Positions 16,971 to 41,685 of a stretch of 64,000 nt of DNA are shown in pieces. Under the pieces are notes generated by a model. That model had not been told where the DNA came from, did no database searches, and saw nothing but the letters and a program-made list of their open reading frames with translations. The translations under genes were made by a program, and so were the position numbers. The DNA lies in contig NC_086097.1 in assembly GCF_963921235.1 (NCBI RefSeq), positions 62,126,001-62,190,000 of the forward strand. The letters are read 5' to 3'. Origin of the DNA: Mobula hypostoma. Lineage: Eukaryota. Numbering within the stretch: position 1 is the stretch's first letter; each line of letters opens with the position of its first letter.

Positions 16971-17225
16971 TGTGGCAGCTCGCCCACGCAGCAAGCGAAC
17001 CGGCTCCAGCAGTCGCGGGCGAGTCTGCAGCCAACGGCAACCGAGAGGGCTCTGAGTGCGGGGCAGACCTCAGCCTGGAAGCCAACACCACTTCCGCCCT
17101 GCAAAGAGCAGGGAATGCTGGGAGCGGGCACTTAAGCGCATGTGGATTGAAACAGCAAACAGTTTAACCAGACCCTGCTCGACTCAGTGTGTTGCTTTCA
17201 CTTGTTGCGTATCAGCGCGACCACA
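16971..17225 (+). repeat. 5' LTR of the CsRN1-like element
   Basis: TG...CA; direct repeat of 20669-20923. Confidence 0.95.
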
Positions 17226-17226
17226 T

Positions 17227-17240
17227 TGGTGACCCCGATG
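17227..17240 (+). promoter_or_regulatory. Primer-binding site for tRNA-Trp
   Basis: TGGTGACCCCGATG is complementary to the vertebrate tRNA-Trp 3' end (TGGTGACCCCGACG) with one CpG-type change. Confidence 0.85.
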
Positions 17241-17263
17241 GTCCAACGGCATTTGGACCCAGC

Positions 17264-17968: not shown

Positions 17969-20600
17969 TGGCTACGGCGGCTGGTCACCGTGATAGCCTC
18001 TTCTACGTTTGGGACAAGCACTCCGGGCGTAGATTCCTGGTGGACACAGGGGCGGAAATCAGTGTCCTACCCCCCTCGAACCATGATACCCGAACTACAA
18101 GAACAGGACCGGAACTTATGGCAGCCAACAGCAGCACCATCTGCACCTATGGCACAAGAACCATCCCCTTGCAGTTCTGTTCCAGCCGCTTTACATGGAC
18201 ATTTACGCTGGCCGCAGTATCACAGCCACTGCTGGGTGCGGACTTCCTCCGCGCACACTGCCTGCTCGTGGATTTGAAGGAACGACGATTGGTCGATGCA
18301 AAGAAGTTCCAGACTTTCTCCCTCGGTGAGGCCAAGTTACTGGCCCTGCACCTGAACTCCGTCACTTATTCAGACAATGAGTTCGCCAGAGTGTTATTGG
18401 AGTTCCCATCTATCATCACGCCGCAGTTTTCCTCAACAGACCCCAAGCATGGCGTGAGGCACTACATCCCCACACAGGGACTTCCCCTTCATGCCCAGGC
18501 CCACAGGCTACCGCCCGACAGGCTCCGCCTCACGAAAGTGGAATTTAAGAAGATGGAGGACATGGGGATTGTGCGGCATTCTGACAGCCCGTGGGCCTCC
18601 CCACTCCATATGGTGCCCAAGTCTGCGGGAGGTTGGAGACCGTGCGGCGACTATAGGAGGCTGAACAATGCCACCACATCCGATCGCTATCCGCTACTAC
18701 ATATCCAGGACTTGACGGCCAACCTGCACGGGGCGCGCATCTTTTCGAAGATTGACCTAGTCCGAGGGTATAATCAGATCCCAGTCCACCCGGACGATGT
18801 ACCCAAGACAGCCCTCATTACCCCACTTCGGCCTGTTCGAGATCCTCAAGATGCTGTTTGGGCTAAAAAACGTGGCACAGCCGTTCCAGCACCTGATGGA
18901 CGCAGTGGGGCGAGATCTGGACTTTCTGTTCATCTACCTGAATGACATACTTATCGCCAGCCGCTCCCGCCAGGAATATCTTGCACATTTATGCCTTCTC
19001 TGCCATCGCCGGGTCGACCTCCCTACTGCCCTCACTGTGGATGCGGCAGTTGGCGACATGCTCGAGCAGCTCATCGAAGGCCAGTGGAAGCCGTTCGCTT
19101 TTGTCAGCCGGCATCTACGACCCCTGGAACTTAAGTACAGCGCTTTCGACAGGGAGCTGCTGGCCCTGTACCTTGCCATCCGGCACTTCAGGTATTTCCT
19201 GGAAGGGAGGGAGTTCACGGCCTTCACAGACAATAAGCCCCTCACTTTCGCGTTTGCCAAAGTGTCGGACCTGTGGTTGGGCCACCAGCAACACCACCTG
19301 TCGTACATCTCGGAGTTTACCACCACGATCAAGCAAATCTCCGGGAAGAACAACATGGTAGCTGATGTGCTGTCACGCACCTCCATCCAATCAGAGCACT
19401 CTCTGTCTCTGGGGGTGGATTATGCGGCATTAGCTAAGGCGCAACGACTGGACTGCGAGATGCCGGCATACCGAACTGCAGTCTCAGGACTCCGCCTCAA
19501 AGACATACCCATTGGGCTCCGAAGGTAATGAGCTGCTTTGCGATGTGTCCACTGGGCAACCTCGACCCATTGTTCCGACCGCTTGGAGGCTCTGCGTTTT
19601 CGACGCCTGGCACGGTTTAGCCCACCCCTCCATCCGGGCGACCATCCGGCTGATCGCAGACAGGTTTGTGTGGCATGGCCTACGCAAGCAGGTTGAGCAC
19701 TGGGCCAGGACATGCACGCACTGTCAAACCTCCAAAATCCAGAGGCACGTGAGGGCCCCACTGCATCCCTTCCAGGTGACACATAGGAGGTTTGAACATG
19801 TCCACGTGGACATCGTTGGCCCACTGCTGGTTTCGAGAGGAGCGAGGTACTTGTTCACCATGGTGGACAGGTTCACGAGCTGGCTGGAAGCTATCCCACT
19901 TGCTGACACGGCCACGGAGACATGCGCCAGAGCTCTGATTACCACCTGGGTGGCACGGTTCGGACTCCCTGCCCATGTCACTTCAGACAGGAGTGCGCAG
20001 TTCACATCGGCTTTGTGGTCTGCACTGGCATAACTCCTCGGAACCCAGCTCCACCGAACGACTGCTTACCACTCGCAGTCCAACGGCCTGGTGGGACGCT
20101 TCCACAGGCACTAGGTCAGCCCTGATGGCACGCATCCGAGGGCCAGACTGGGTTGACGAACTCCCCTGGGTGCTGCTTGGCATCCGCACGACACCCAAGG
20201 AGGACCTAGCCACATCATCGGCCAAACTTGTTTACAGTGCCCCGCTCACAGTTCCTGGTGTGTGCCAGCACCCCGTGGCCAGGAGGACACACCTACAGCG
20301 GTCCTAACTAAACTCTGGGAGCAGCTTGGAACACTTGCCCCAGTCCCGACATGGAACAACACCATCTTTCGTACCCAAGAACCTACAAACAGAGCAAGTA
20401 TGTTTTTGTTTGCCAAGGCGCGCAAAGACCACCCCTGCAGCGACCATACGAAGGACCCTGCAAGGTGGTGCGCCATAACGGGACGACCTGCGTTCTCGAC
20501 ATCGGCGGTCGTGAAGAGACTTTTACCATTGACTGTCTCAAACTGGCGCATCTAGACCTTGAACGCCTGGTTGCGGTGCCACGACGAGGCCAGTCACCTA
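17941..20600 (+). pseudogene. pol: pol (PR-RT-RNaseH-IN) of the CsRN1-like element, frameshifted and internally deleted
   Basis: FLVDTGAEIS, SPWASPLHMV, CGDYRRLN, FIYLNDILI, YSAFDRELLA, HGLAHP...CTHCQ, HVDIVGPL, TSDRSAQFTS, RPYEGP. Confidence 0.92.
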
Positions 20601-20668
20601 AAAGAACTGACAGTGTGCAGGCTGTGGACTCTGTACCTCCTAGCGCCTGTTCAGGGGTGGGGAGGTCA

Positions 20669-20923
20669 CGTCACGGCTTGCCCAGGCGGCAAGCGAACCG
20701 GCTCCAGCAGTCGTGGGCAAGTCCGCAGCCAACGGCAACTGAGAGGGCTGTGAGTGCGGGGCAGACCTCGGCCCAGAAGTCGATGTCACTTCTGCCCCGC
20801 AAAGAGTGGGGGATGCTGGGAGTGGGCAATTAAGGGCATGCAGATTTAAACAGTAAACAGTTCAACCAGACCCTGCTCAACTCAGTGTGTTGCTTTCACT
20901 CGTACCGTATCAGCGTGACTACA
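20669..20923 (+). repeat. 3' LTR of the CsRN1-like element
   Basis: Direct repeat of 16971-17225, preceded by a PPT and followed by the TSD CGTT. Confidence 0.95.
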
Positions 20924-21433: not shown

Positions 21434-21784
21434 TGTAACGTTCCGTTATATTGGCTCGTGTATGTCTAAGGAAAATCCCACCCAGCACCTGCCTCAACAC
21501 TCCCCACAGGGTCGGTTGCCCCCCGAATCAATCCCAAACATCAATCATCAGCCAGTGCACTCAGTAAATTTTAACAAGAACACTTTATAGATATTACTAA
21601 TTCTATGACATTAATATAAATTTGTTACAGAGAGGAAAGTAATGAAAAAAAAAGGCGCCAACACTTATCAAAGTCCAAGTTCTTCGTGCGCTGCCGTTGG
21701 AGCTCAATCGAATCTGGACGACCACCCGAATCCTGTCGACTCACGGCTCGGGACCACCCGGAGTGATCGACCAGAGCCTGTCCG

Positions 21785-24700
21785 CACGTCCGCGGTCCTC
21801 CCCATCTCTCCACCGTCCTCCTCGTTTCTCCTCCAACTCCCCGTCTCTCCTCCGTCCTCCCCGTCTCTCCACCGTCCTCCACGTCTCTCCTCTGACCTCC
21901 TGCCAAAACCCCCGTCCACCATCCTCCCGGTCTCTCCTCCGACTCCCCGCCAAAAACCCCGTCCACCGTCCTCCCCGTCTCTCCACCAACTCCCCCCAAA
22001 AACCCCGTCCACCGTCCTCCTTGTCTCTCCACCGACACCTCGTCTCTCCTCCGACTCCCCACCAAAAATCCACGCACATCCGCCATCCTCCCCTTTCTCT
22101 CCTCCGACTCCCCGCAAAAACCCCGTCCGCTGTCCTCCCCGTCTCTCCTCCGAGTGCCCGCCAAAAACCCAGTCCACCATCCCCCCGTCTCTCCTCCGAC
22201 TCCCCCCAAAAACCCCGTCCACCGTCCTCCCCGTCTCTCCACCGTCTTCCCCGTCTCTCCTCTGACTCCCCGTCTCTCCACCATTCTCCCAGTCTCTCCT
22301 CCGACTCCCCGACAAAAACTCGTCCACTGTCCTCCTCGTCTCTCCTCCGACTCCCCATCTCTCCTCCGTCCTCCCCGTCTCTCCACCGTCCTCCTCGTCT
22401 CTCCACCATCCTCCTCGTCTCTCCTCCGACTCCCCGTCTCTGCACCGTCCTCCTCGTCTCTCCTCCAACTCCCCGTCTCTCCTCCGTCCTCCCCGTCTCT
22501 CCACCGTCCTCCACGTCTCTCCTCTGACCTCCTGCCAAAACCCCCGTCCACCATCCTCCCGGTCTCTCCTCCAACTCACCGCCAAAAACCCCGTCCACCG
22601 TCCTCCCTGTCTCTCCACCAACTCCCCCCAAAAACCCCGTCCACCGTCCTCCTTGTCTCTCCACCGACTCCCCGTCTCTCCTCCGACTCCCCACCAAAAA
22701 CCCCCGCACATCCGCCATCCTCCCCGTCTCTCCTCCGACTCCCCGCAAAAACCCCGTCCACTGTCCTCCCCGTCTCTCCACCGTCCTCCCCGTCTCTCCT
22801 CCGACTCCCCACCAAAAACCCCTGCACGTCCGCCGTCCTCCCCGTCTCTCCTCCGACTCCCCCCAAAAACCCCGTCCACTGTCCTCCCCATCTCTCCTCC
22901 GACTCCCCCCAAAAAACCAGTCCACCATCCTCCCCGTCTCTCCTCCGACTCCCCCCAAAAACCCAGTCCACTATCCTCCCCGTCTCTCCTCCGACTCCCC
23001 CCAAAAACCCCGTCCACCGTCCTCCCCGTCTCTCCTCCGACTCCCCGTCAAAAACCCCATCCACCGTCCTCCTCATCTCTCCACCGACTCCCCGTCTCTC
23101 CTCTGACTCCCCACCAAAAACCCCCGCACGTCCGCTGGCCTCCCCGTCTCTCCTCCGACTCCCCCCAAAAACCCCGTCCACCGTCCTCCCCGTATCTCCT
23201 CCGACTCCCCCCAAAAACCCCGTACACCGTCCTCCCCGTCTCTCCTCCGACTCCCCGTCAAAAACCCCGTCCGCCGTCCTCCTCGTCTCTCCTCCGACTC
23301 CCCGTCTCTCCACCGTCCTCCCTGTCTCTCCTCCGACTCCCCGCCAAAAACCTCGTCCACCGTCCTCCTCGTCTCTCCTCCGACTCCCCCCAAAAACCCC
23401 GTCCACCGTCCTCCCCGTCTCTCTACCGTCCTCCCCGTCTCTCCTCCGACTCCCCGTCTCTCCACCATTCTCCCAGTCTCTCCTCCGACTCCCCGACAAA
23501 AACTCGTCCACTGTCCTACTCGTCTCTCCTCCGACTCCCCATCTCTCCTCCGTCCTCCCCGTCTCTCCACCGTCCTCCTCATCTCTCCACCGTCCTCCTC
23601 GTCTCTCCTCCGACTCCCCGTCTCTCCACCGTCCTCCTCGTCTCTCCTCCAACTCCCCGTCTCTCCTCTGTCCTCCCCGTCTCTCCATCATCCTCCACGT
23701 CTCTCCTCTGACCTCCTGCCAGAACCCCCGTCCACCATCCTCCCGGTCTCTCCTCCGACTCCCCGCCAAAATCTCCGTCCGCCGTCCTCCCCGTCTCTCC
23801 TCCGACTCCCCACCAAAAACCCCTGCACGTCCGCCGTCCTCCCCGTCTCTCCTCCGACTCCCCCCAAAAACCCCGTCCACTGTCCTCCTCGTCTCTCCTC
23901 CGACTCCCCACCAAAAACCCCCGCCCGTCCACCGTCCTCCCCGTCTCTCCTCCGACTCCCCGTCAAAAACCCCATCCACCGTCCTCCTCATCTCTCCACC
24001 GACTCCCCGTCTCTCCTCTGACTCCCCACCAAAAACCCCCGCACGTCCGTCGTCCTTCTCGTCTCTCCTCCGACTCCCCCCAAAAACCCCCGCACGTCCA
24101 CCGTCCTCCCCGTCTCTCCTCCGACTCCCACCAAAAATCCCCGCACGTCCGCTGGCCTCCCCGTCTCTCCTCCGACTCCCCCCAAAAACCCCGTCCACCG
24201 TCCTCCTCGTCTCTCCTCCGACTGCCCGCCAAAAACCCCGTCCACCGTCCTCCCCGTCTCTCCTCCGACTCCCCGTCAAAAACCCCGTCCGCCGTCCTCC
24301 CCGTCTCTCCTCCGACTCCCCGTCTCTCCACCGTCCTCCCTGTCTCTCCTCCGACTCCCCGCCATAAACCTCGTCCACCGTCCTCCTCGTCTCTCCTCCG
24401 ACTCCCCGTCAAAAACCCCTGCACGTCCACCGTCCTCCTCGTCTCTCCTCCGACTTCCCCCAAAAATCCCCACCCATCCGCCGTCCTCCCCGTCTCTCCA
24501 CCGTCCTCCCCGTCTCTCCTCCGACTCCCCGTCTCTCCACTGTCCTCCCCGTCTCTCCTCCGACTCCCCGTCTCTCCGCCGTCCTCCCCGTCTCTCCTCC
24601 GACTCCCCGCCAAAAACCCCGTTCACCGTCCTCCTCGTCTCTCCTCCGACTCCCCGCCAAAACCCCGTTCACCGTCCTCCTCGTCTCTCCTCCGACTCCC

Positions 24701-25960
24701 CGTCAAAAACCCCGTCCGCCGTCCTCCCCGTCTCTCCTCCGACTCCCCGTCTCTCCACCGTCCTCCTTGTCTCTCCTCCGACTCCCCGCCATAAACCTCG
24801 TCCACCGTCCTCCTCGTCTCTCCTCCGACTCCCCGTCAAAAACTCCTGCACGTCCACCGTCCTCCTCGTCTCTCCTCCGACTCCCCCCAAAAATCCCTAC
24901 CCGTCCACCGTCCTCCCCGTCTCTCCACCGTCCTCCCCGTCTCTCCTCCGACTCCCCGTCTCTCCGCCGTCCTCCCCGTCTCTCCTCCGACTCCCCGCCA
25001 AAAACCCCGTCCACCGTCCTCCTCGTCTCTCCTCCGACTCCCCGCCAAAACCCCGTCCACCGTCCTCCCCGTCTCTCCTTCGACTCCCCGTCAAAAACCC
25101 CGTCCGCCGTCCTCCCCGTCTCTCCTCCGACTCCCTGTCTCTCCACCGTCCTCCTCGTCTCTCCTCCGACTCCCCGTCAAAAACCCCTGCACGTCCACCG
25201 TCCTCCTCGTCTCTCCTCCGACTCCCCCCAAAAATCCCCACCCGTCCGCCGTCCTCCCCGTCTCTCCACTGTCCTCCCCGTCTCTCATCCAACTCCCCGT
25301 CTCTCCGCCGTCCTCCCCGTCTCTCCTCCAACTCCCCACCAAAAACCCCGTCCACCGTCCTCCCCGTCTCTCCTCCGACTCCCCCCAAAAACCCCGTCCA
25401 CCGTCCTCCTCGTCTCTCCTCCGACTGCCCCCAAAAATCCCCACCCATCCACCGTCCTCCCCGTCTCTCCACCGTCCTCCCCGTCTCTCCTCCGACTCCC
25501 CGTCTCTCTTCCAACTCCCCGTCTCTCCGCCGTCCTCCCCGTCTCTCCTCTGACTCCCCGCCAAAAACACCGTCCACCGTCCTCCTCGTCTCTCCTCCGA
25601 CTCCCCGCCAAAACCCCGTCCACCGTCCTCCCCGTCTCTCCTCCGACTCCCCGTCAAAAACCCCGTCCGCCGTCCTCCCCGTCTCTCCTCCGACTCCCCG
25701 TCTCTCCACCGTCCTCCCTGTCTCTCCTCCGACTCCCCGCCATAAACCTCGTCCACCGTCCTCCTCGTCTCTCCTCCGACTCCCCGTCAAAAACCCCTGC
25801 ACGTCCACCGTCCTCCTCGTCTCTCCTCCGACTCCCCCCAAAAATCCCCACGTGTCCGCCGTCCTCCCCGTCTCTCCACTGTCCTCCCCGTCTCTCCTCC
25901 AACTCCCCGTCTCTCCGCCGTCCTCCCCGTCTCTCCTCCGACTCCCCACCAAAAACCCCG
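21785..25960. repeat. Expanded complex C/T-rich minisatellite inside the 3' LTR
   Basis: Irregular array of ~20-bp modules (cgtctctcctccgactcccc; cgtctctccaccgtcctccc) and longer modules containing aaaaacccc; ~4.2 kb. Confidence 0.95.
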
Positions 25961-28900
25961 TAGCTGGACGAACTTTACCTTCTGATCATACCTCCTTTTA
26001 TTCCGCTGGTTCTGCTTGGTGGCTGCTGCCTCAGCCAACTCGTACGCCCTTTTCAACTCTCTCCTCATATCGGACATGTACTTCAGACACGGCTTCGAAG
26101 GTATTTCCCCCGCTTCAGTCCCAAAACACAGATCAATGGGCAATCTCGCTTCCCGTCCGAACATCAGATAGTAGGGCGAGTACCCCGTAGCATCATTGTG
26201 AGTACAATTGTAACAATGAACCAAATGGGCGATGTGCCGACTCCACTTACTCTTCTGTCCAATCTCCAAGGTGCCGAGCATGTCCAGCAGGGTCCGGTTA
26301 AACCTCTCGGGTTGAGGATCACCCTGCGGGTGATAGGGGGTGGTTCTGGATTTCTCAACCCCAAGCATATCCAGTAATTCATGGATAAGCCTGCTCTCGA
26401 AGTCCCATCCCTGACCACTATGGATCCGCCGGGGAAGGCCATAATGAACAAAGTACTTCTCCCGTAACACCTTCACCACTGTAGTCGCTTTCTGGTCCTT
26501 AGTGGGAAACGCCCGAGCATATCCAGTGTAGTGATCCGTGAGGACCAAGGCGTTCGTGGTGTTGCTGGTGTCTGGCTCAATAGACAGGAAATCCATACAC
26601 ACCAGGTCCATGGGTCCCGCACTCTGCAAGTGGGATAACGGGGCCGCCTGTGCAGGCAGGGTCTTCCTCCTGACGCAACGGCTACAGGTCTTACAGTATT
26701 CTTCCACCTCCCCTCTCATCCGGGGCCAGTAAAACCGGTCCTTGACTAATCCATAGGTCTTCTCTACCCCCAAGTGCCCGGAATCATCATGTAGAGCCTG
26801 GAGCACAGTCTTCCGATACTTCTCAGGCTGACCAGCTGCCAGCGCCGGGGGTGGTCCGGAGGCGACGTGACCCGGTACAGGACGTGGTTCTTCAGCTTCA
26901 ACCGGGGCCACTCCTTCAGTAGTAGGGGAACGGAGGCATGTTTCGCCTTCTCCACCTGCCCCATATCACCCCGGCTAACCGTGTACCAGATAGTGCCAAT
27001 GCTCGGGTCATCACGCTGAGCCACCCCCTCTTCCTGGGGACTCAACTCCGGCAGCTGCCTGTTCCTCAGAGCAGTCACATTACAGTAAACAGTGGGCAGC
27101 GCGTCATCATCAACCCCCAATTGATCCACTGCCCTATCCGTTCGCATCGGGGCTCCTACTTCCCCGTCGCTCCCAACTTGACACATGGCCTTTACTCCCG
27201 GGGCAGGGACACTCTTCCACTCCTCAGCCATGCCCGACTCGTCGTGCGCCCGACGAGACAGGGCATCTACATCGATGTTCTGACTCCCCGGGCGGTACTT
27301 CAGGCTGAACTCATAGGCAGACAAGGCTGCTAACCATGGTGCCCAGTAGCGTCCAGCTTTGCCGAGGTCAGGATATAAGTGAGGGGGTTGTTGTCAGTTC
27401 TCACCTTAAACTGGGCCCCATATAGGTAGTCACTCAACTTGTCCACCACCGCCCATTTCAACGCCAAGAACTCCAGCTTGTGAGTGGGATAGTTTCTCTC
27501 AGATGGCGACAAGCTCCGGCTGACAAACACTACCGGCCTCAATCCGTTGCCCTGTTCCTGGTACAGGACAGCCCCCAGACCCTCGTGACTGGCATCAGTG
27601 TGTTCCGGGGATCAGCAAAAGCCAACACTGGGGCCTGTGTCAGCGCCCTTTTCAGAGATTGGAACGCCTCCTCACATTGAGCATCCCACCTCAATCCAAA
27701 AGGCTCCCCCGGGTTCAGGTATCCTCCTACCTCCGACCCTCGGTCTCCCTTCCTCCTCCTCCCCACAGGTGGATAACCACACAACAGCTGGTTCAGCGGA
27801 TGACTCATTTTCGCATATCCTTTCACGAATCGCCGGTAATATCCGCAAAACCCCAAAAACGAGCGTAAGGCGCTCACCTTCTGAGGTCTCGGCCAGGTGG
27901 TTACTGCGGCTATCTTACCCGGATCAGTGGCCACTCCATTTCGCGAGATTATGTGCCCGACATAGCTGACCGACGTCTTACAGAACTGACATTTATCCAG
28001 GGAAAGTTTTAACCCTTCCTCCTTCAGCCGACTCAGCACCTTCAGCAGCCGCTCCTCATGTTCCTCCAACGTAGATCCAAACACTATCAGGTCGTCCAGG
28101 TACACCAATACCTCCAGCAGGTTCATGTCCCCCACTGTCTGCTCTATGAGCCGCTGAAAGGTGGCTGGGGCCCCCGAGATGCCTTGGGGCATTCGTTCGA
28201 ACTGGAAAAATCCCAGGGGGCAGATAAAGGCCATCTTCTCTTTACCGGTCTCACTCATCGGAATCTAGGAATACCCACTCCGCAAATCCAATATGGTAAA
28301 CCACTGCACCCCACTCAGACAGGCCAAGGCATCTTCCACCCTCGGGACCGTATATTGGTCGGGAACAGTGCGCCGGTTCAGGGTCCTGTAGTCCACGCAC
28401 ATGCGTACCTTCCCATTTTTCTTCCTTGCCACCACTATGGGGGACGCATAGGGGCTTCGGGACTCCGCGATAATCCCTGCATCCTTCAACTGCCGCAAGT
28501 GCTGCCGCACATCTTCCACACCTGCTGGGGCCAATCGCCGTGACATTTCTCTAAACGTGGTGTCATTTGTCACTTGGATAGTGTGCCAAGTGCTCTTGGA
28601 ACATCCCACATCAAACTCGCCCTGAGAAAAAACACCCCCTAACTTCAGCATCTTCTCCACCAGCCTGCTCTTATACGCCGGCGGTACAGGGGAGTCTTCA
28701 AAATTAAAGGCCTCCTCGGTCAGCCGCCCCCCGTTCTCCAATAGTTTTCCTCCAGTGGGCTTCACGGGGGCGCTGGACATCACCATCACTGGGAACAAGT
28801 GCACGAGGGGCATCCCGCGCTTAAAGGTGATCTCCCTCTCCGTTATGTTCCTTACCATCACCCCCATCCGCCGTGCCTGTACAGCTGAGGGCCTCTGCAA

Positions 28901-29029
28901 TTCAGGTCTCACCAGTGCTCCATCCGGAATTTGGGCTTGTTCTTTCTGGGGTTCCATAGCGGGTTTCTGGGAACGTGTTCCTCCTGAGACTCCAGTCCAT
29001 TCCCTCACTGAGCCTCTCCTAAGTTTCCC
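25961..29029 (-). pseudogene. pol: pol of the PNMA-type Gypsy element (protease deleted, integrase C-terminus truncated)
   Basis: SPYASPIVV, MCVDYRTLN, LDLRSGY, MPQGISGAPATFQ, LVYLDDLIVF, YPTHKLEFLALKW, HDDSGH...CSRC, CMDFLSIE, TTPYHPQGDPQPERFNRTL. Confidence 0.92.
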
Positions 29030-30318
29030 AATACCTCTACCTTCTTAGTAGCCCGGGGGCCCTCCCCCCTCGGAGCATCTCATCTCTCACAATCCCTGCG
29101 CAAGTGACCCGCTTCCCCACAGCTGTAGCACACCCCCTTCCACTCACATTCCCGCCGGAAATGCCCCTCTCTCCCAGAGTTATAGCACCCACTACCCGCC
29201 GCCTCTCTCCTCCCGATACACTCCCTCGGGGACCCCTTAGATTTCTCTGATCTCACCCCGGCTACGACCTCCTGAACCGCTGAAGACCATCCCCGGGGGT
29301 CCGAGCCCCCTGGTCGGCCCAAAGCACTCTCCTCTGCCCGTACCTCTCTAATCAGCTGCCCGAATGATGGAGGGGGTCTCCACTTAAATGACTGCCGGAT
29401 ACTCCAAGCCACCCTGTCATCCTCCCGGGAACCTCTACATATCTGGCTCATCCTCAACTTCGCCACTTCGTCCTCCCTCACTACCCCTCGTCGCCGCAGC
29501 CCCGTAAGCTTTCCTTCCAGCCGGAAAACGTATTCTGAGAGCTTGTCTCCTCTCCTCTGCCCCATTTGTTGAAACTCCGCTAAATATTTCCAGGGATCTC
29601 CTGACAGTCCAAACACTTCCTCCAAAGCGTCCAAACACTCCGATAGGGAAGCCGAAGGGGCGTGCCGCTCTCAAATCCCAGACCACACGGGCTGCCCCGC
29701 CCCTTAAGTTTCCACCAGTCGCTGTCTCTTTTCCTCATCCGAAACTGGCCACACCTCTAACAACTGGGATGTATCCTCAATCCAGGTATCATATTCATCC
29801 TCCCCTCCCGGGGTGGGCCTGGCTCCCGAGAAAATTCTCAGCTTCGGGCGGGGCCCCTCAACCCTTCTCGCCAGGGAGGTAATGGCAGCCGCTAACTCAG
29901 AGGTCTCAGCACGTCCAGGGGGATAGGGCCTGGCCAAGCCTTCCCACTCCACTCCTCCACCCCTGGCTACTGGTACCTCCCCTGGGGCCTCATCTAGCTC
30001 CTCCTCCGGCACCTCCTCACTTGCGTCCTCCGGGAGGGTGTGGAGACCCCACGGCCCTGCCTCCCCCTGGACGTGGACTGTCGCTGGTAGTTCCAAAGTC
30101 ATGACGTCGGCACTCGTCCGCACCAACATCCATCTGGACTCCAGTTCTTTCCCACCCCTACTAGCTATAAGTTCTACCTGCCCGATACCTTTAATCAAAC
30201 TCAACCCTCGCACCAGTACCTCTGCCGGAATGCAATAATCGACCCCACTTAGCATGCATGCATGATTCACCGGTACCACCTCCAATTCACACCAATTTAC
30301 AATCTTATCTCGATCCAT
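29020..30318 (-). pseudogene. gag: gag, PNMA (paraneoplastic Ma antigen)-like, two CCHC knuckles; one frameshift and one stop
   Basis: MDRDKIVNWCELEVVPVNHACMLSGV N-terminal domain; KLRIFSG...EYDTW...WPVSDEEKRQRLVE capsid region; QRRGDKLSEYVFRLE; CYNSGREGHFRREC and CYSCGEAGHLRRDC. Confidence 0.9.
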
Positions 30319-30366
30319 CTTCACACCACTTAACACGACGACTATTACAGCTTTACCGAAAATCCA

Positions 30367-30387
30367 AATCCAGGACAGTAGCCCCCA
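30367..30387 (-). promoter_or_regulatory. Primer-binding site, tRNA-Pro-like
   Basis: TGGGGGCTactgtcctggatt, 2 nt from the LTR, versus the Pro PBS TGGGGGCTCGTCCGGGAT. Confidence 0.7.
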
Positions 30388-30389
30388 CT

Positions 30390-31702
30390 TGTAACGATCC
30401 GTTATATTGGCTCGTGTATGTCTAGGGGAAATCCTACACAGCACCTGTCTCAACACTCCCCACAGGGTCGGTTGCCGCCCGAATCAATCCCAAACATCAA
30501 TCATCAGCCAGCGCACCCAGTAAATTTTAACAAGTACACTTTACAGATATTACTAATTCTATGACATTAATATAAATTCGATATAGAAAGGAAAGTAATG
30601 GAAAAAAACGGCGCCAACAATTATCAAAGTCCAAGTTCTTTGCGCACTACCATTGGAGCTCAATCGAATCTGGACGACCACCTGGATCCTGTCGACTCAC
30701 GGCTCGGGACCACCGAAGTGATCGACCGGAGCCTTTCCGCACGTCCGCCGTCCTCCCCGTCTCTCCTCCGACTCCCCATCTCTCCACCGTCCTCCCCGTC
30801 TCTCCTCTGACTCCTCGTCTCTCCACCGACTCCACATCTCTCCACCATCCTCCCGTTTCTCCTCCGACTCCCCGCCAAAAACCCCGTCCGCCATCCTCCC
30901 CATCTCTCCTCTGACTCCCCGTCAAAAACCCCGTCCACCGTCCTCTCCGTCTCTCCTCCGACTTCTCGTCTCTCCTCTGACTCCCCGTCTCTCCACCAAC
31001 TCCCCGTCTCTCCACCGTCCTCCCTGTCTCTCCTCCGCCTCTCCGTCTCTCCACCAACTCCCCGTCTCTCCACCGTCCTCCCTGTCTCTCCTCCGCCTCC
31101 CCGTCTCTCCACCGACTCCCCATCTCTCCACCGTCCTCCCCATCTCTCCTCCGACTCCCCGTCTCTCCACCGACTCCCTGTCTCTCCACTGTCCTCCCCG
31201 TCTCTCCTCCAACTCCCCGCCAAAAACCCCCGCACGTCCACTGTCCTCCCCGTCTCTCCTCCGACTCCCCATCTCTCCACCAACTCCCCGTCAAAACCCC
31301 CATGCACCGTCCTCCCCGTCTCTCCTCCGACTCCCCGCCAAAAACCCCCGCACGTCCACCGTCTTCCCCGTCTCTCCTCCAACTCCCCGTCAAAACCCCC
31401 ATGCACCGTCCTCCTCGTCTCTCCTCCGACTCCCCGCCAAAAACCCCCGCACATCCACCGTCCTCCCCGTCTCTCTTCCGATTCCCCATCTCTCCTCCGA
31501 CTCCCCGCCAAGAACCCCCGTCCCCAGTCTTATGATACAGCATGGTATCCGAAAACAAAACGATACATGACTACCCATTGGCTAATAGCACCCTGCTATC
31601 TCTAATAACCCAAGCAACTGTCTAGTTAGAGACTGTCTCAGCATTCCCCAGTATAACATAACAAAAGAAGCCATTTTAAATTTTAAAAAAAGACCCCATA
31701 CA
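30390..31702 (-). repeat. 5' LTR of the PNMA-type element, with ~0.8 kb of the same minisatellite (about 30740-31525)
   Basis: 30390-30745 is a close copy of 21434-21790. Confidence 0.92.
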
Positions 31703-33579: not shown

Positions 33580-33803
33580 AAGGCAAGTCACTTTTTATTG
33601 TCATTTCAACAGAGTACACAATAAAAATGAGACAACATTTTTCAGCGCCATGGTGCTACGTGAATAATACAAAAATTACACTGAACTACGTAAAACAACA
33701 CAAAACTACACTAGACTACAGACCTACCCAGGACTGCATAAAGTGCACAAAATAGTGCAGGTATTACAATAAATAATAAACAAGACAATAGGCACAGCAG
33801 AGG
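33580..33803 (-). mobile_element. Rex/Babar-like LINE 3'UTR fragment (continues 38301-38340)
   Basis: caagtcactttttattgtcatttcaac... resembles the LINE 3' end at 10945-11000. Confidence 0.55.
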
Positions 33804-34045
33804 TGATGCACTATCAACTACTCCAAAAGACTGGAAGTAGAGTAAATAGTGAAAGGCTTTTATTAACAGTAAAATTGACCCACGTCCATGCTGAATATCT
33901 GTCCTGGACTGAGGGAGGAGCAGTCACACAATCACCTTTATTCAGGGGTCTGTGTGAGAAGCCACAGGAGCAGTCAGCAAACAGGCGTGTCCAGGCATGT
34001 CCAGACAGGTAACCCAGTTACAACCTATATACATGGTTTACCACA
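33804..34045 (-). repeat. 3' LTR (242 bp)
   Basis: Direct repeat of 38069-38300 with an extra ~10-bp tgtccaggca duplication. Confidence 0.95.
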
Positions 34046-34197
34046 TTCACCCCTCCTTTTTTTTTAAAAAAAGTCCCACGGGGTGCAGCGACTGACAATA
34101 TTTAAAACAAGTATATTTACAGGTTAAGTCTATCAGGCGGTTGAGTCCGTCGCTGTGATCTACGTAGCACCGGCGGTGATTGCACCGGCGATGGCGG

Positions 34198-37060
34198 TTA
34201 TGCTGGCTCCGGCCTGACTTCAGGTGCCAGCACGTTAGGCGTCGGTAATCTCTCGTGCGTGTGCGTCGCGCCCGGTATGGAAGTGTCGTGTGGTGTCTGT
34301 GTAGGGGTTGGAGTGTGCAGTGTCTCGTGGGTACATATATCAGTGGGTATGGGGTTAATAGTCACCATGGAGTGTTCAGGGTAGGGGCCCGGTGCCCCTG
34401 CGGGTGCCAGGTCGCGGATGGAGACCGTGTCCTCCCACCCATCAGATAAAACCACATAGGCATACTGGGGGTTTGCATGAAGTAAGTGAACCCTCTCGAC
34501 CATCGGGGAGTATTTATTGCTCCTCACATGTTTCCGGAGCAGCACTGGCCCCGGGGATATCAGCCAAGTTGGTAGGGTGGTCGCGGTGGTCAACTTCCTG
34601 GGAAAAGAAAAGAGTCGCTCATGAGGGGTGGCATTGGTGGCTGTGCATAACAGGGAGCGGATGGAGTGGAGTGCCTCGGGAAGGACCTCCTGCCAGCGGG
34701 AGACTGGAAGTCCCTTTGACCTGAGGGCTAAGAGTGTGGCTTTCCACACCATGGCATTCTCCTTCTCCACCTGTCCATTCCCCCGGGGATTATAGCTCGT
34801 GGTCCTACTAGTTGCAATTCCCCGAGCCAGTAGGTATTGGCGCAGCTCGTCACTCATAAACGAGGACCCTCTGTCACTGTGGATATAGCATGGGTATCTG
34901 AACAGAGTGAAGAGCTTGTGCAGGGCTTTTATAACTGACGTGGTAGTGGTGTCGGGGCAGGGGATGGCGAAGGGGAACCACGAGTACTCGTCGATAACGT
35001 TAAGAAAGTATACATTGCGGTTGGTGGAGGGAAGGGGGCCCTTAAAGTCAACACTCAGATGCTCAAACGGGTGGGTGGCCTTGATGAGTTGTGCCTTTTC
35101 AGGTCGGTAGAAGTGCGGTTTGCACTCTGCGCAGACTTGGCAGTCCCTGGTCATTGTCCTGATTTCCTCAAGGGAGTAAGGCAGGTTCCGGGCTTTCACG
35201 AAGTGGAAAAGCCGGGTGACCCCCGGGTGACAAAGATCAACATGTAGGGTGAATAGCCGGTCAATCTGCGCGCTGGCGCATGTTCCCCGGGATAGGGCAT
35301 CGGAGGGCTCGTTGAGCTTCGCAGGCCTGTACATGATGTCATAGTTGTAGGTGGAGAGTTCGATTCTCCACCTCAGAATTTTATCATTTTTGATTTTGCT
35401 CCGCTGTTGGTTACTAAACATGAATGCGACTGAGCGCTGGTCAGTCAGCAGGGTGAACTTTTTGCCGGCGAGATAGTGCCTAATAGCTTCCGCTATGGCC
35501 TGGGCCTCTTTCACCACCGCGGAGTGCCGAATTTCAGGCCTTGAAGGATACGGGAGAAGAGCGCCACTGGTCTTCCTGCCTGGTTGAGGGTAGCAGCCAG
35601 CGTAAAGTCGGAGGCGTCACTCTCTACTTGGAAGGGAATGACCTCATCCACCGCATGCATTGCTGCTTTGGCAATGTCCCCTTTTATGCAGCTGAAGGCC
35701 GCACAGGCCTCGGCTGAGAGGGGGAATGTGGTGGACTTGACCAGGGGGTGGACCTTGTCTGCATAGTTAGAGACCTATTGGGCGTAATATGAAAAGAAGC
35801 CCAGGCACCTTTTGAGGGCTCTGAGGGTGTTGGGAAGAGGGAGTTCCAACAGGGGGCGCATACGGTCGGGGTCAGGGCCAATGACTCCGTCAACACACCC
35901 AAAGGCCCCCACAAGACACCCAAGGATAGCAAGTCGGGTGGTCCCGAATACACACTTGTCCTTGTTATAGGTGAGGTTGAAAGCTTTGGCTGCTTGGAAA
36001 AATTTTCAGAGGATGTTGTCGTGATCATGCTGGTCGTGACCGCAGATGGTGATGTTATCCAGGTATGAGAACATGGCCTTCAGTTGACACTGGTCCACCA
36101 TCCGGTCCATTGCCCTCTGGAAGACAGATATACCATTCGTAACACCGAAGGGGACGCGAAGGAATTGATAAAGCCTGCCGTCCGCCTCGAAGGCAGTGTA
36201 AGGGCGGTCCTCCCGGCGGATGGGGAGCTGATGGTAAGCGAATTTTAGGTCTATGGTCGAGTACACCTTGTACTGTGCTATCTGATTGACCATATCCGCG
36301 ATGCGGGGTAGAGGGTACGCGTCGAGCTGCGTGAACCTATTGATGGTCTGGCTATAGTCCACGACCATCCTATTCTTCTCCCCGTTCCAAACAACCACCA
36401 CCTGCGCCCTCCAAGGACTTGTGCTTGCCTCAATGACCCCCTCCCTGAGCAGCCACTGCACCTCCGACTTAATGAAAGCTCTGTCCCCCGCGCTGAACCT
36501 CCTGCTTTTAGTTGCCACAGGTTTACAGTCGGGGGTCAGGTTGGCGAACAGCGGTGGGGGAGGGATCTTGAGGGTGGAGAGGCGCCAGCGGTGTCCATAG
36601 TGCGGCTGTTGGCATGATGTTGGGTGGGATGTGCGGGTTGGTGTGTGTGTGTGTGGTCAGTAGCGGGGTATGTGACGTATTCCTACAAAACTGAGGATTT
36701 CCGACAGTGATTGGTGGGAGGGGCCCATCATACTGCATTGTCACGCTTTTCAGGTGCCTCTGGAATTCGAGCCCCTATAGCACAGGGGCACACAGTTGAG
36801 GCATGACCAGTAATGAAAAATCTCGATATTCTGTGCCCTGCACCACTAGCGTCACTACACAACCCCCCCCGGATATCTGTTGTATGCGACCTGGAAGCCA
36901 TGACGATCTTCTGACGATACCGGCCGTATCGCGAGTCCGCAACGCTGCACTGTGTCCAGGTGGATAAAACTCTCCATGCTGCCTGTGTCAAACAGGCAGC
37001 TTGTCCTGTGCCCCTCCACCAGGATGTCCATCATTGACCTTGCAAGCTGGTGGGGAGCAC
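34198..37060 (-). pseudogene. pol: pol of the PBS-less Gypsy element
   Basis: LFDTGSMESFI (PR), SPWRAQVVVV, VVDYSQTINRFT, PFGVTNG, SYLDNITICG (RT), TDQRSVAFMF (RH), HVDLCHPG...CQVC, SVDFKGPLP, HSDRGSSF, GNGQVEK (IN). Confidence 0.92.
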
Positions 37061-37167
37061 TTTGGTCGAGGGTCACGGAAGCCAGGGTTGAGTCGCTGTC
37101 TTGGCCCGGCACGGTGGGGTGCGTGGTGAACACCCGTTGGTCGTAGGCAGTGGGAGGTGCTGCCGAC

Positions 37168-37268
37168 CAAGATGGCCGCCCCCATGTCTTGCACATGGTG
37201 GCGGCGTGCAGGGAAGATGGCTGCCCCCATGTCTTGCACATGGTGGCGGCGTGCAGGCAAGATGGCGA
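37168..37268. repeat. 45-bp in-frame tandem repeat (just over 2 copies) in the gag-PR linker
   Basis: caagatggccgcccccatgtcttgcacatggtggcggcgtgcagg repeated; encodes SLHAATMCKTWGQPS. Confidence 0.85.
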
Positions 37269-37317
37269 CCACCATGCCTCGCTTGCGGCGCTGCTCGATC
37301 CTGCTCGTGGTTTGGAC

Positions 37318-38043
37318 TTACAGGCCTCGACGAAGTGGCCCTTCTTTCTGCAGCTGGAGCAGGTAGCTTCTCAAGCCGGGCAGCATTTCCATGTGCTTCT
37401 CAAGTCTGCAGAAGTAGCACTTCGCGGACTCGCAACTGGCAGCAGCCATGGTCGATTCGCCAGCGAGTTGCGGGGTCTGCAGTGTCCACGAGGCCGTCGG
37501 GAGATCACGTGCCTGTAGAGCTTCAGAGTTGTGCTGAACGGCCTCCTGTGTGTCAGCCAACTCAATCGCTGAACGTAAGCTAAGATGGGTGTGTTCCAGC
37601 AGCCGCTGGCACACATATACTGACTTGGTCCCTGTGAAGAAGGCGTCTCTTACTAGGAGCTCCGCATACTCTTCGGCCATCAGCCCCCGGCAATCGCAGG
37701 CCCGCACGAGTGTCTGTAGGGCCCGGACGAACTCAGTGCTCGAATCTCTGGGCTGCTGCTGCCGCATCACTAAGCGATGTCGCGCATTGACAGTGCTTAC
37801 CGGCCACAGGTATTGTCTTCTGAGGGCGCTCATCGCGCCATCGTAGCTCGGCTGGTCTTGAATCATTGAGTAGACCCGTGGACTGACCCTGGAGAGGAGA
37901 ACTCTGTGCTTCGCGGCTGACTCGGTCACTTCAATGTCCTCCAGGTATGATTCGAAGCAGGCCAACCAGAGTTCGAAAGTGTTTCTGGCTTCAGGTGTTT
38001 GCGGGCCGAGATCTAGCTTGTCGGGTCTCAGGACGTGTTCCAT
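37318..38043 (-). pseudogene. gag: gag of the PBS-less Gypsy element (frameshift within the zinc knuckles)
   Basis: MEHVLRPDKLDLGPQ...FELWLACFESYL, ARHRL..RQQQP, LVRDAF, CYFC. Confidence 0.85.
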
Positions 38044-38068
38044 GCTTTAAAATTACTGTTAATAAAAT

Positions 38069-38300
38069 TGATGCACTGTCAATTACTCCAAAAGACTAGA
38101 AGTAGAGTAAATACTGAAAGGCTTTTTGTAACAGTAAAATGGACCCACATCCATGCTGAATATCTGTCCTGGACTGAGGGAGGAGCAGTGACACAATCAC
38201 CTTTATTCAAGGGTCTGTGTGAGAAGCCACAGGAGCAGTCAGCAGAGAGGCGAGTCCAGACAGGTAACCCAGTTACAACCTATGTATGTGGTTTACCACA
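38069..38300 (-). repeat. 5' LTR (232 bp)
   Basis: Direct repeat of 33804-34045. Confidence 0.95.
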
Positions 38301-38339
38301 AGAGGGCAGTAGGTTGGTATCAGTAGGTAGGTTGGTAGG

Positions 38340-38861: not shown

Positions 38862-41685
38862 TGTAATGTATTGTGTGAGTATTCGTGGTGTAAGAGTGCG
38901 TATGATGTCAGGACGTAGAGAAGTAAAAATGGAAGTCTGTTGAATAAACGTGGTTGTTCAAGTCACATCAATATTACATGGTGTCAGAAGAAATCACAAA
39001 GAAAATAAAAAGGAAGAGAAGACACGTAAAAGATGTCACAGTTACAGCCAGCATCAAGTTTAAGCCTACAAGGTAATCTTGCTGAGAACTGGAAAATATG
39101 GATTCAGAAGTTTGAGCTGTTTTGCACAACTACCAGCGTAGCTGAAAAGATGGAGAAAGTGCAATGTGCTACATTTCTGCATGTGGCGGGGGAAGAGGCA
39201 ATAAAAGTTTGCAACACGTTTGTCTTCCAAGATGATGAGCAAGATTAAATTGAAGTGTTGAAGAAAAAGTTTAAAGATTACTGCGAACCGAGAAAAAACC
39301 TACCGTACATCCGACACAGGTTTTTCACGAGGGCTCAAGGACCAATAGAGACCACAGACGCCTATTTAACAGATTTGAAGAGCAAGGCAAAAAACTGTGA
39401 GTTCGGACAACTGCATGACTCATTAATACGTGACAGGATTGTATGTGGCATACGAGATGATCAAGTGAGAGGCAGGCTATTGAGAGAGGCGGATTGACGT
39501 TTGCCGTGCCAGCGAGATCACGTCAAGTCAGGTTAAAGTGCTCAATGAAGAGATTGAAGTGCACAAAATAAAAACTGTGAAAACTGACAAGAGTAGGACA
39601 AAGTCAGCTCCACAGGATGATCAAAAGGAAGTTAACTGCAACAGATGTGGTTATGAACATGGGTACGGAAAATGACTAGCCTTTGGTCAGACATGCAAGT
39701 TATGCCAGAAAAGAAATCACTTTGCAAGGATGTGCAAATTGAAGGAGCACGCAAGGAAAATGCATGCTGTGGAACAGAGTGAGGGCAACAGTGACATGTT
39801 CATTGGCACAGTTGAAGTGGGACAGGTGGTATGCATCAAGAATATTGACAATGCAGAGATGGAGGATGAAGATGATTGGACTCAAGATCTGATAATGAAC
39901 AGGAGGAATGTGACATTTAGGCTTGAGACAGGGGCAAAGTGCAATGTAATGTCTGCAGAAACGTTCAACTCTCTGGACATCAGAGGAAGACTGAGAAAAT
40001 CCACCTGCAAGCTTGTTGCATGTTTCGGCCACAAGACGGCACCACTGGGGATAAAAGCACTCACCTGTGTGTACAAAGGTCAACAATATAAGATGGAGTT
40101 TGAAATAGTACAGCAACATGTTCCAACAATACTGGGCAAAGCAACATGTGCAAAGCTAGGCTTGGTGAAGTGAATCTTTGGTGTTGAAAAAGAAAATGAC
40201 ATTCTCAAAGACTTAGATGACTTGTTTTCTGGATTAGGATGTTTACCAGGGAAACAACATATCCAGATTGATCCAACTATTGCACCAGTCGTGCATGCTC
40301 CAAGAAAGATTCCAGTAGCTCTCAGGGATCAAGTAGTGGAGGAGCTGCACAGAATGGAACAGATGGGAGTCGTAACAAGACAAATAGAACCGACCGACTG
40401 GGTGAATAGTATTGTGACAGTGGTCACAGAAAAAAAGACGAGGATTTGCATGGATCCACAAGATCTCAACCAAGCCATCAAAAGAGAGCACTATCCGCTG
40501 CTCACGGTTGAAGAGGTTGTCTCCTGCATGCCTAATGCAAAATACTTTTCAGTATTAGATGCAAATCAAGGTTTCTGGCAAATCAAGCTGGATGAAGAAA
40601 GTTCCAAATTATGTACTTTCATCACGCCCATACAGAGATATCATTTCCTGCACCAACCCTTTGGGATTTCTTCTGCATCAGAGGTATTCCAGAGATCCGT
40701 GGCACAAATGATTGAAGGCCTGGACGGGGTGGTCAACATCACTGATGGTTTGCTGATATGGGGTGACACAATTGAGGAACATGATCAGAGACTGAGGAAG
40801 CTCCTAGACAGAGCACGTGAGTACAACCTAAAACTCAGTAAAAGTAAACGTAAGATCAGAACTACAGAGATTAAATACATAGGTCATGTACTCAGCGCTG
40901 ATGATGAAAAGGTCAGAGCTGTGGTACAGCTACCACCACCCAAAGACAAGCAAGAACTATTGAGGTTCATGGGCATGGGTATCTTGCCAAATTCATTCCC
41001 AACTTATCAGAGGTCAGCGCTCTACTCCGAAAGCTACTAGAGAGCAACACTGAATGGCATTGGGAAGACGAACAAAAGAAAAGTTTGACACATTGAAGCA
41101 GTTGGTTACCAATGCACCAGCACTCAAGTTCTATGATGTTAATAAACCAGTGACAATGTCTGTTGATGCCAGTTCGGAGAGAATAGGAGCTGTTATACTG
41201 CAGGATGGGAGGCCTGTGTCATATGGATCATGAGCACTTACAGACTGTCAATGCTGGTATGCTTAAATCGAGAAGGAATTACTTGCCATAGTTTAAGGGT
41301 GTGAGAAGTTCCACCAATATGTATATGGCAAAGAAATCCAGGTTGAGAGTGATCACAAACCACTTGAGAGCATCTTCAAAAATCCACTCTACTAAGCTCC
41401 TATGAGGCTGCAAAGAATGCTTCTCAGGCTACAGAGGTACACTCTCACAGTCACCTATAAGCCAGGAAAAGAACTGTACATCGCTGATGCTTTGAGCCGT
41501 GCTTACCTCAAAGAGCAAAAGGAAGAGTTGCTAGGAAGAGAGCTGGAGGTCAACTGGGTTACACCTCACTACCCATCTCTGAGGAGAAGTTGAACATGTT
41601 CGGGAAAGCAACTGCAGATGATACTGAAATGCAAATGCTAAGAGACATTACAATGAATGGATGGCCAACAGAAAGAAAAGATGTT
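38862..41685 (+). mobile_element. Ty3/Gypsy element (Mag/SURL-like), 3'-truncated, many stops
   Basis: 117-bp LTR 38862-38978 (tgtaat...attaca, with AATAAA); PBS TGGTGTCAGAAG (tRNA-Leu type); gag GNLAENWKIWIQKF, IRDRIVCGI; PR LETGAKCNV; RT RICMDPQDLNQAIKRE, LDANQGFWQ; RH SDHKPL, ADALSRA; no integrase core or 3' LTR. Confidence 0.92.

What the first reader, a model, noticed from the sequence alone, without database searches (positions are those of the whole stretch)
38053..38137. Gypsy element whose primer-binding site is an antisense copy of its own LTR AATAAA segment (candidate tRNA-independent priming / polyA-occlusion hairpin)
Seen: directly after the 5' LTR the element strand reads attttattaacagtaattttaaagcATG. 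There is no TGG (complement of the tRNA CCA end), and gag starts only ~25 nt from the LTR. Positions 38053-38067 (+ ttactgttaataaaa) are the exact reverse complement of the LTR segment at 33858-33872 (15/15) and match the 5' LTR copy at 38123-38137 at 13/15. On the element strand this segment contains AATAAA ~55 nt from the LTR end. Established: Tf1/Sushi elements self-prime by pairing the PBS with the very 5' end of the transcript. Inference: here the partner seems to lie inside R, over the probable polyA signal, so the hairpin can form only at the 5' LTR. It could both hide that polyA signal and supply a primer after cleavage. The gag and pol look unlike chromoviruses, so this would be a separate origin of self-priming. 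It may already be noted in repeat databases; I cannot check.
Basis: partly seen in the sequence, partly recalled or inferred. Interest (0 to 1): 0.8.

Follow-up and report, generated by a model that had tools for sequence, protein, structure and literature searches.

The report
Self-priming hairpin in animal Gypsy clade
This dead jumping gene of a ray-like fish, and its relatives from other hosts, has no site for the usual host tRNA primer and instead keeps a 13-16-base match to its own terminal repeat, so the lineage probably starts copying itself from its own RNA, in a layout that differs from the known yeast example; this is untested.

Summary
Observation confirmed. The 15-mer after the 5' LTR is the exact reverse complement of the LTR segment carrying AATAAA. 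It is not a deletion: none of 30 own-genome copies has a TGG primer site. It covaries: a second family in the genome and six families from other hosts each have a different LTR arm and a matching different post-LTR arm (13-16 Watson-Crick pairs; cross-family at most 11). In 8 of 9 families pairing starts at +2 after the LTR's CA, the register a primer needs (LTR end confirmed by a second LTR in 4). A ninth, decayed family fits only partly. A conserved TATA + Inr predicts transcription starting 35-38 nt upstream of the arm, unlike Tf1. A polyA-type hexamer ends the arm in 7 of 8 families, so masking it is plausible but not universal. The clade is monophyletic, lacks a chromodomain and has a Mag-like gag; a separate origin is likely but not shown (AU p=0.24). 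No RNA-end data; the tRNA test covered only three isotypes. Verdict: probable clade-wide self-priming, a new variant of a known mechanism.

The parts
38301..38305 (-). Target-site duplication CCTCT, upstream copy
   Evidence: flanks
38069..38300 (-). 5' LTR, 232 nt, TG...CA
38202..38207 (-). TATA-like box (GAATAAAGG); the homologous place in family B is TATAAA
   Evidence: function inferred
38172..38177 (-). Initiator-like TCAGTC; predicted transcription start at 38175, 38 nt before the arm
   Evidence: found in 23 of 30 family-A and 28 of 30 family-B copies, 31-32 nt from the TATA-like box in most; prediction only
38123..38137 (-). LTR arm in the 5' LTR (candidate self-primer end); 13/15 complementary in this copy, 15/15 in 19 of 30 copies
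38069..38122 (-). 54-nt loop of the hairpin (rest of R and U5), predicted to form further duplexes
   Evidence: folding predictions
38068..38068 (-). One unpaired base between the LTR's CA and the paired stretch
   Evidence: same register in 8 families
38053..38067 (-). Antisense arm at the primer-binding-site position
37321..38043 (-). gag, first open piece (241 aa), starting 26 nt after the LTR
36858..37370 (-). Zinc-knuckle/protease piece (weak Pfam aspartyl-protease hits below cut-off)
35687..36656 (-). Reverse transcriptase, in two open pieces
   Evidence: (RVT_1 E 5.6e-18)
34201..35616 (-). RNase H end and integrase; no chromodomain hit
34046..34065 (-). Polypurine tract ending ...GTGAA before the 3' LTR
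33804..34045 (-). 3' LTR, 242 nt
33858..33872 (-). Arm copy in the 3' LTR, with the probable polyA signal AATAAA (33859-33864); no partner downstream
   Evidence: predicted mostly unpaired in the 3' context
33799..33803 (-). Target-site duplication CCTCT, downstream copy

Best explanation
A decayed copy of a Ty3/Gypsy lineage that primes minus-strand DNA synthesis with its own RNA. Shown from sequence: a 13-16-nt arm inside the LTR pairs with the bases that follow the 5' LTR, starting one base after the CA, and both sides change together between families. Inferred: transcription starts about 35-38 nt upstream of the arm; the arm pairs with the PBS-position sequence as soon as that is made (possible only at the 5' LTR); the RNA is cut at the arm's 3' end, most likely by the element's RNase H as in Tf1, which leaves a 3'-OH one base from the LTR end on a roughly 50-nt capped fragment; RT copies the 23-54-nt loop; the stretch between the polyA signal and the polyA site of the 3' LTR supplies the repeat for the first strand transfer. 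In most families the arm ends in the polyA hexamer, so the same duplex hides that signal at the 5' LTR only, as a second use.
For: No TGG in 30 of 30 family-A copies or in 8 of 8 family representatives. Families A and B differ at four arm positions and all four are compensated on the other side. Eight families each pair best with their own LTR: 13-16 nt against 4-11 across families; 0 of 3,000 shuffles reach the observed run in seven families, 2 of 3,000 in the eighth. Pairing starts at +2 in all eight and +1 never extends it; a polyA-hiding or translation hairpin would not need this register, a primer does. Sushi-like elements of the same genome show the same +2 register with a 10-nt arm, while the CsRN1-like element in the window has an ordinary TGG site. 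TATA + Inr at 31-32 nt spacing upstream of the arm in families A and B. Predicted arm-PBS pairing probability 0.86-0.99 in 15 of 16 folds; the hexamer region is 1-5% unpaired in the 5' context against 25-94% in the 3' context in those folds. Further duplexes flank the stem, as in the three-duplex Tf1 structure (bioRxiv 10.1101/2022.12.06.519325, passages).
Against: No RNA start, RNA end, cleavage product or primer-DNA junction was seen (contigs only; no polyA-tailed retrocopy). TATA + Inr was found only in families A and B; no comparable pair in C-H. The LTR end was confirmed by a second LTR only for A, B, G and H; for C, D, E and F I chose the CA by eye, so their +2 register is partly circular. 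The ninth family (L108, one decayed copy) has only 9 pairs from +1, a loop of about 120 nt and no hexamer. One family-C copy (L063) pairs at only 9 of 14 (11 with G-U). Family G folds differently when 40 nt upstream are included (pair probability 0.01). The arms are A/U-rich (8-33% GC, duplex -10 to -21 kcal/mol). The hexamer is outside the arm in family C. Tf1 cleavage was shown for an arm at the very 5' end (PMC7175516, passages); whether it works with a 5' overhang is unknown.
Confidence: 0.55

Rival explanations
1. Self-priming exactly as in Tf1: the packaged RNA starts at the first base of the arm, so the primer is just the first 13-16 nt, and the upstream TATA/Inr is irrelevant or a second start.
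For: Same register as the Sushi-like elements; folds are at least as good when started at the arm, and family G folds correctly only then; no TATA/Inr pair upstream of the arm in families C-H.
Against: TATAAA + TCAGTY at textbook spacing in 28 of 30 family-B copies and the homologous pair in 23 of 30 family-A copies, 35-38 nt before the arm in most; my motif scan found no TATA-like match about 30 nt before the arm in A or B; the polyA hexamer would sit about 10 nt from the cap.
Confidence: 0.18
2. The hairpin's job is to hide the polyA signal at the 5' LTR (or to set gag translation), and the primer is something else: an internal tRNA fragment, another host RNA or a protein.
For: A hexamer AATAAA/ATTAAA/AGTAAA ends the arm in 7 of 8 families and is predicted paired only in the 5' context. 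The tRNA test was narrow: 20 genes of Lys, Cys, Thr; the best run was 4 Watson-Crick pairs, or 10 with G-U allowed, on the D arm of tRNA-Lys.
Against: Eight different PBS-position sequences track eight different LTR arms, which no conserved host RNA could match; fixed +2 register; family C keeps the hairpin although its AATAAA is in the loop; the hairpin occupies the only place where a primer can bind.
Confidence: 0.12
3. [quoted passage not shown]
For: The 3' copy is predicted to be largely single-stranded and lies near a natural RNA end; sequence covariation cannot tell the two LTR copies apart.
Against: The 5' arm is 23-54 nt from its partner and pairs first; trimming the 3' end would remove the repeat needed for strand transfer on that molecule (inference).
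Confidence: 0.1
4. Chance match of A/T-rich sequence, or a normal PBS deleted in this copy.
For: Both arms are very A/T-rich.
Against:: fixed in the family, covarying across families, far above shuffles and window background.
Confidence: 0.01

Closest known systems
Tf1/Tf2 of Schizosaccharomyces pombe and the Tf1/sushi group of chromoviruses (incl. Tj1, Tosmo, Tcn1)
   Same: No tRNA PBS; sequence after the 5' LTR pairs with an LTR segment; polarity right for priming; extra duplexes beside the central one (PMC7175516, PMC4600332, bioRxiv 10.1101/2022.12.06.519325; passages). Sushi-like copies in this genome share the +2 register.
   Different: [quoted passage not shown] No chromodomain or Tf2-1 SH3 hit; gag has two CCHC knuckles and resembles Mag-type gag.
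Predicted self-priming Ty1/copia TAR lineage (Houba, Osr-1) of plants
   Same: A second, non-chromovirus lineage predicted to self-prime from sequence alone (PMC6317226, passages), so repeated origins are already proposed.
   Different: Copia superfamily, plants; no overlap with a polyA signal mentioned in the passages read.
Mag lineage / Cigr-1 clade of animal Ty3/Gypsy
   Same: Single gag-pol ORF of about 1,200 aa, short LTRs, gag similar to the Mag-like element in the window (E about 1e-9). Recalled, from no call: Ciona Cigr-1 has 245-bp LTRs and one 3,630-bp ORF, which fits this clade's sizes.
   Different: RT-RNase H does not group with the window's Mag-like element with support. No Cigr-1 or MolGy reference sequence was available, so the clade's published name is unresolved.
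PolyA-occluding hairpins of retroviral R regions such as HIV-1 (recalled, no call)
   Same: RNA structure hides AAUAAA at the 5' LTR.
   Different: There the hairpin is local to R and present at both LTRs and priming is by tRNA; here the partner lies outside the LTR at the PBS position.

Membership tests
Ty3/Gypsy (Metaviridae) LTR retrotransposon | TG...CA LTRs, 4-6-bp target duplication, PPT | tested here: met
Ty3/Gypsy (Metaviridae) LTR retrotransposon | Domain order gag-PR-RT-RNase H-IN | tested here: met
   best PDB matches are Ty3 RT
Tf1/sushi chromoviruses | Chromodomain at the integrase C-terminus | tested here: not met
   No Chromo or SH3_Tf2-1 hit in the window pieces or in 5 of 5 clade proteins scanned; the Sushi-like control L107 hit SH3_Tf2-1 but also gave no Chromo hit in the piece scanned
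Tf1/sushi chromoviruses | RT-RNase H nests within the chromoviruses | tested here: inconclusive
   Clade is one branch (100/100) apart from three Sushi-like rows, which group with CsRN1-like rows at 95/93; AU test does not reject clade + Sushi (p=0.44; p=0.24); no Tf1, Ty3 or plant chromovirus reference in the tree
Tf1-type self-priming | Post-LTR sequence complementary to an LTR segment, no tRNA PBS | tested here: met
Tf1-type self-priming | Partner segment is the very 5' end of the RNA | tested here: inconclusive
   Promoter motifs predict a start 35-38 nt upstream in families A and B; no RNA-end data
Tf1-type self-priming | Three-duplex structure around the PBS | tested here: inconclusive
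   Extra R:U5 or U5 stems predicted in several families; no covariation count made for them
Tf1-type self-priming | RNase H-dependent cleavage releases the primer | not testable with these tools
   needs biochemistry
tRNA-primed Gypsy | TGG-starting PBS matching a tRNA 3' end | tested here: not met
   0 of 30 family-A copies, 0 of 8 family representatives; control CsRN1-like element has one
Half-tRNA or tRNA-fragment priming | PBS matches an internal tRNA segment | tested here: inconclusive
   Only 20 tRNA genes of three isotypes tested: best 4 Watson-Crick, 10 with G-U
Cigr-1 clade or a MolGy clade | RT/RNase H monophyly with the named reference elements | not testable with these tools
   No reference sequence found; the Cigr-1 resemblance is recalled

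The most novel reading that the evidence does not exclude
A widespread animal Ty3/Gypsy clade outside the chromoviruses evolved self-priming on its own, with a new layout: the primer end lies inside the transcript and coincides with the polyA signal, so one short duplex both sets the 3'-OH for reverse transcription and silences the polyA signal only at the 5' LTR.
Probability: 0.4. Interest if true: 0.8.

Novelty: new variant of a known kind. Interest (0 to 1): 0.62.

Why it matters
Self-priming has been demonstrated only in fission-yeast Tf1 and predicted for its chromovirus relatives and one plant copia lineage (PMC6317226, passages). A covarying hairpin across a non-chromovirus animal clade would add another lineage that does without tRNA, which bears on whether hairpin priming is ancestral or arose repeatedly (raised in PMC3601003, passages). 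If the arm is internal, cleavage cannot depend on a free 5' end as in Tf1. The overlap with the polyA signal offers an economical answer to how a very short LTR is read through at one end and terminates at the other. Such elements would also lack the target for host tRNA fragments (inference). In practice, LTR finders that require a tRNA PBS will under-call this clade.

Tried and rejected
PBS deleted in this copy: rejected. Chance: rejected. RNA evidence: no RNA holder listed; four runs laid were contigs of guessed type and showed no start or end, so nothing on expression either way. Search for polyA-tailed retrocopies to map the polyA site: 0 matches. Rfam: 0 matches at E up to 1 over the element. 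Viral collection: no relative with the gag-based alignment; one distant locus L072 with the pol-based one, outside the clade. Rows dropped before the family count: of 11 metagenome loci, L061 and L068-L071 had no usable 5' junction and L062, L067 had the junction without the arm; of 10 GTDB loci, L080-L082 had no 5' junction; of 11 further stretches, nine had no gag start, L109 no intact start, and only L108 was usable. L039 was not parsed. Eight other-clade elements served as tree outgroups only; the fetched stretches did not show their LTR junctions, so they are not PBS controls. The bacterial promoter scan is not meaningful here. Naming the clade failed. My working label 'Gmr1-like' for the window element at about 25787-30483 is wrong as a classification: its order is RT-RNase H-IN, not the inverted Gmr1 order. 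Literature: ten searches listed no paper describing self-priming in this clade. Not held, hence unread: Levin 1995, Lin and Levin 1997 and 1998, Atwood-Moore 2006, Esnault and Levin 2015, Simmen and Bird 2000. Repbase and GyDB entries could not be searched, and I recall that Repbase notes call some animal Gypsy families self-primed, so prior notice cannot be excluded. Supplements not seen: PMC6238403 file 2; PMC8556966 files 11, 13, 14; all but file 1 of PMC13524379.

Full report
1. The observation. The element lies on the - strand from 38300 to 33804, with LTRs of 232 and 242 nt (217 of 232 aligned bases identical), TG...CA ends, a CCTCT target duplication and a polypurine tract. Its coding region is broken into five open pieces in the order gag, protease, RT, RNase H, integrase. 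One base after the 5' LTR comes a 15-mer that is the exact reverse complement of the LTR segment 54 nt from the LTR end (15/15 to the 3' LTR, 13/15 to this copy's 5' LTR); there is no TGG, and the gag ATG starts at +26. Shuffles (3 of 20,000 reach 15; 0 of 5,000 exceed 11) and the window background (8 of 9,269 CA sites reach 13) exclude chance.

2. It is a family trait. The host genome is 3.48 Gb; the closest named proteins come from devil rays and stingrays. A search with the LTR-gag junction gave 43 matches from 40 scored candidates, of which I took the best 30, the window included. None has TGG after the LTR. Nineteen of 30 pair perfectly over 15 nt with their own 5' arm; over all copies 435 of 450 positions are Watson-Crick, 4 G-U and 11 mismatched. 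One copy (L020) has a two-sided, non-CpG change.

3. It covaries. A second family in the same genome (B, 30 loci) has a different arm and a matching different post-LTR arm; all four positions at which A and B differ within the shared 15 nt are compensated. In B, 8 of 29 parsed copies are perfect over 16 nt, with 436 of 464 positions Watson-Crick, 20 G-U and 8 mismatched. Relatives from other hosts came from metagenome contigs and from what appear to be eukaryote contigs inside GTDB genome bins; their hosts are unknown. They gave six more families (C: L063-L066; D: L073; E: L074; F: L075; G: L076-L078; H: L079). In one representative of each of the eight families the longest Watson-Crick run is 13-16 nt, starts at +2 after the LTR's CA, and is not extended by +1; against the other families' LTRs the best run is 4-11 (11 between G and H, 10 for G or H against C); 0 of 3,000 shuffles match it in seven families and 2 of 3,000 in F. 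The loop is 23-54 nt. Limits: the LTR end is fixed by a second LTR only in A, B, G and H, and was chosen by eye in C-F; some copies are degraded (L063 9 of 14, L064 13 of 14, L077 12 of 14); a ninth family, one decayed copy (L108), has only 9 pairs from +1, a loop of about 120 nt and no hexamer. Loci without a 5' junction are listed under Tried and rejected. Controls: the CsRN1-like element in the window has an ordinary TGG site; two Sushi-like elements from the same genome have a 10-nt arm in the same +2 register, 241 and 362 nt from the LTR end and without a hexamer.

4. Where the arm sits in the RNA. The upstream AATAAA of family A (LTR position 94) lines up with TATAAA in family B; an initiator-like TCAGTY follows at 31-32 nt in most copies (Inr found in 28 of 30 B and 23 of 30 A copies). 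This predicts a start at window 38175, 35-38 nt before the arm, and leaves the arm's AATAAA as the only canonical polyA signal in the family-A LTR transcript. No such motif pair was found in families C-H, and no RNA ends could be observed. A hexamer AATAAA, ATTAAA or AGTAAA ends the arm in 7 of 8 families; in C it lies in the loop, and G has a second one there. Folding predicts the arm-PBS duplex at 0.86-0.99 in 15 of 16 folds (G fails when 40 upstream bases are added), with the hexamer region paired in the 5' context and more open in the 3' context, and extra stems beside it.

5. Mechanism. Shown: the conserved, covarying, fixed-register duplex in place of a PBS. Inferred: that it primes. The register is the key argument, since only a primer must end next to the LTR boundary, and the element has no other primer site. 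By analogy with Tf1, where the first 11 bases pair with the PBS and RNase H cuts after them (PMC7175516, passages), a cut at the arm's 3' end would free a primer, here probably a capped fragment of about 50 nt; the segment between the hexamer and the polyA site would serve for strand transfer. Hiding the polyA signal at the 5' LTR is a plausible second use but cannot be the whole reason, given family C. Odds: internal-arm self-priming 0.55, exact Tf1 layout 0.18, priming from the 3' arm copy 0.10 (self-priming in some form about 0.8), occlusion only with another primer 0.12, chance 0.01. The tRNA-fragment rival was tested on only 20 genes of three isotypes: best 4 Watson-Crick pairs, 10 with G-U; the stronger argument against it is that eight unrelated PBS sequences follow their own LTRs.

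6. What the clade is. Homologous single ORFs of about 1,200 aa are numerous (469 and 439 hits), with named hosts among copepods, shrimp, an isopod, a nematode, a tunicate and a sea anemone; the LTRs of those named records could not be examined. On RT-RNase H the clade is one branch at 100/100 with a long stem (H and C were not in the trees, H's piece being too short). No chromodomain or Tf2-1 SH3 hit was found; gag has two CCHC knuckles and is closest to the window's Mag-like gag (E about 1e-9, against E 0.003 or worse for Sushi-like). So it is not filed as a chromovirus. But deep forks are open and the AU test does not reject a clade + Sushi grouping (p=0.44; p=0.24), so independent origin is likely, not shown. 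The published name is unresolved; a fit to Ciona Cigr-1 in ORF and LTR size is recalled and untested.

7. Novelty. Self-priming is known (Tf1/sushi; predicted for plant Tcn1 and copia TAR: PMC6317226, PMC4600332, bioRxiv 10.1101/2022.12.06.519325, PMC6934838, PMC3601003; passages read in each). Passages of PMC6238403, PMC8556966, PMC13524379, PMC12440569 and PMC2774666 on animal Gypsy clades did not mention it. Ten searches found no description for this clade, but the primary Tf1 papers, Simmen and Bird 2000, Repbase and GyDB were out of reach. Earlier notes of this scan propose self-priming in unrelated copia and protist lineages (unchecked) and none matched this clade by sequence. Verdict: real, clade-wide, probably self-priming; a new variant of a known mechanism whose distinctive points (internal arm, overlap with the polyA signal) rest on motif prediction. 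Interest 0.62.

Noticed in passing
window 16978-20923 (+): CsRN1-like Gypsy element with 248-nt LTRs (86% alike) and an ordinary TGG-type PBS; used as control.
   Followed up: partly
window about 25787-30483 (-), with arrays at about 21615-26190 and 30576-31605: Another Gypsy element (order RT-RNase H-IN) flanked by long, strongly skewed tandem arrays of a roughly 19-20-nt unit, perhaps expanded inside its LTRs.
   Followed up: no
window about 39030-41040 (+): Broken Mag-type Gypsy gag-pol just beyond the element's 5' flank; no LTR pair found.
   Followed up: partly
window 37168-37282: Three tandem 45-nt repeats in the gag-protease linker; similar repeats occur in ray homologues.
   Followed up: no
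window 35287-35377 (+): ARAGORN calls a 91-nt tRNA-Ala inside the pol region; probably a false call.
   Followed up: no
L027; L005, L008, L011, L020: L027's arm carries family-B-like bases in a family-A LTR (possible recombination). Four family-A copies share one change in the post-LTR arm; it is compensated in L020 and gives a G-U pair in the other three.
   Followed up: partly
L106, L107: Sushi-like elements of the same genome carry a 10-nt self-priming-type arm 362 and 241 nt from the LTR end.
   Followed up: partly
L073-L081; G001-G004: Several GTDB bacterial genome bins hold contigs with many LTR retrotransposons (up to 159 matches in one bin), most likely host DNA; P0083 is labelled a bacterial integrase although it belongs to this clade.
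   Followed up: no
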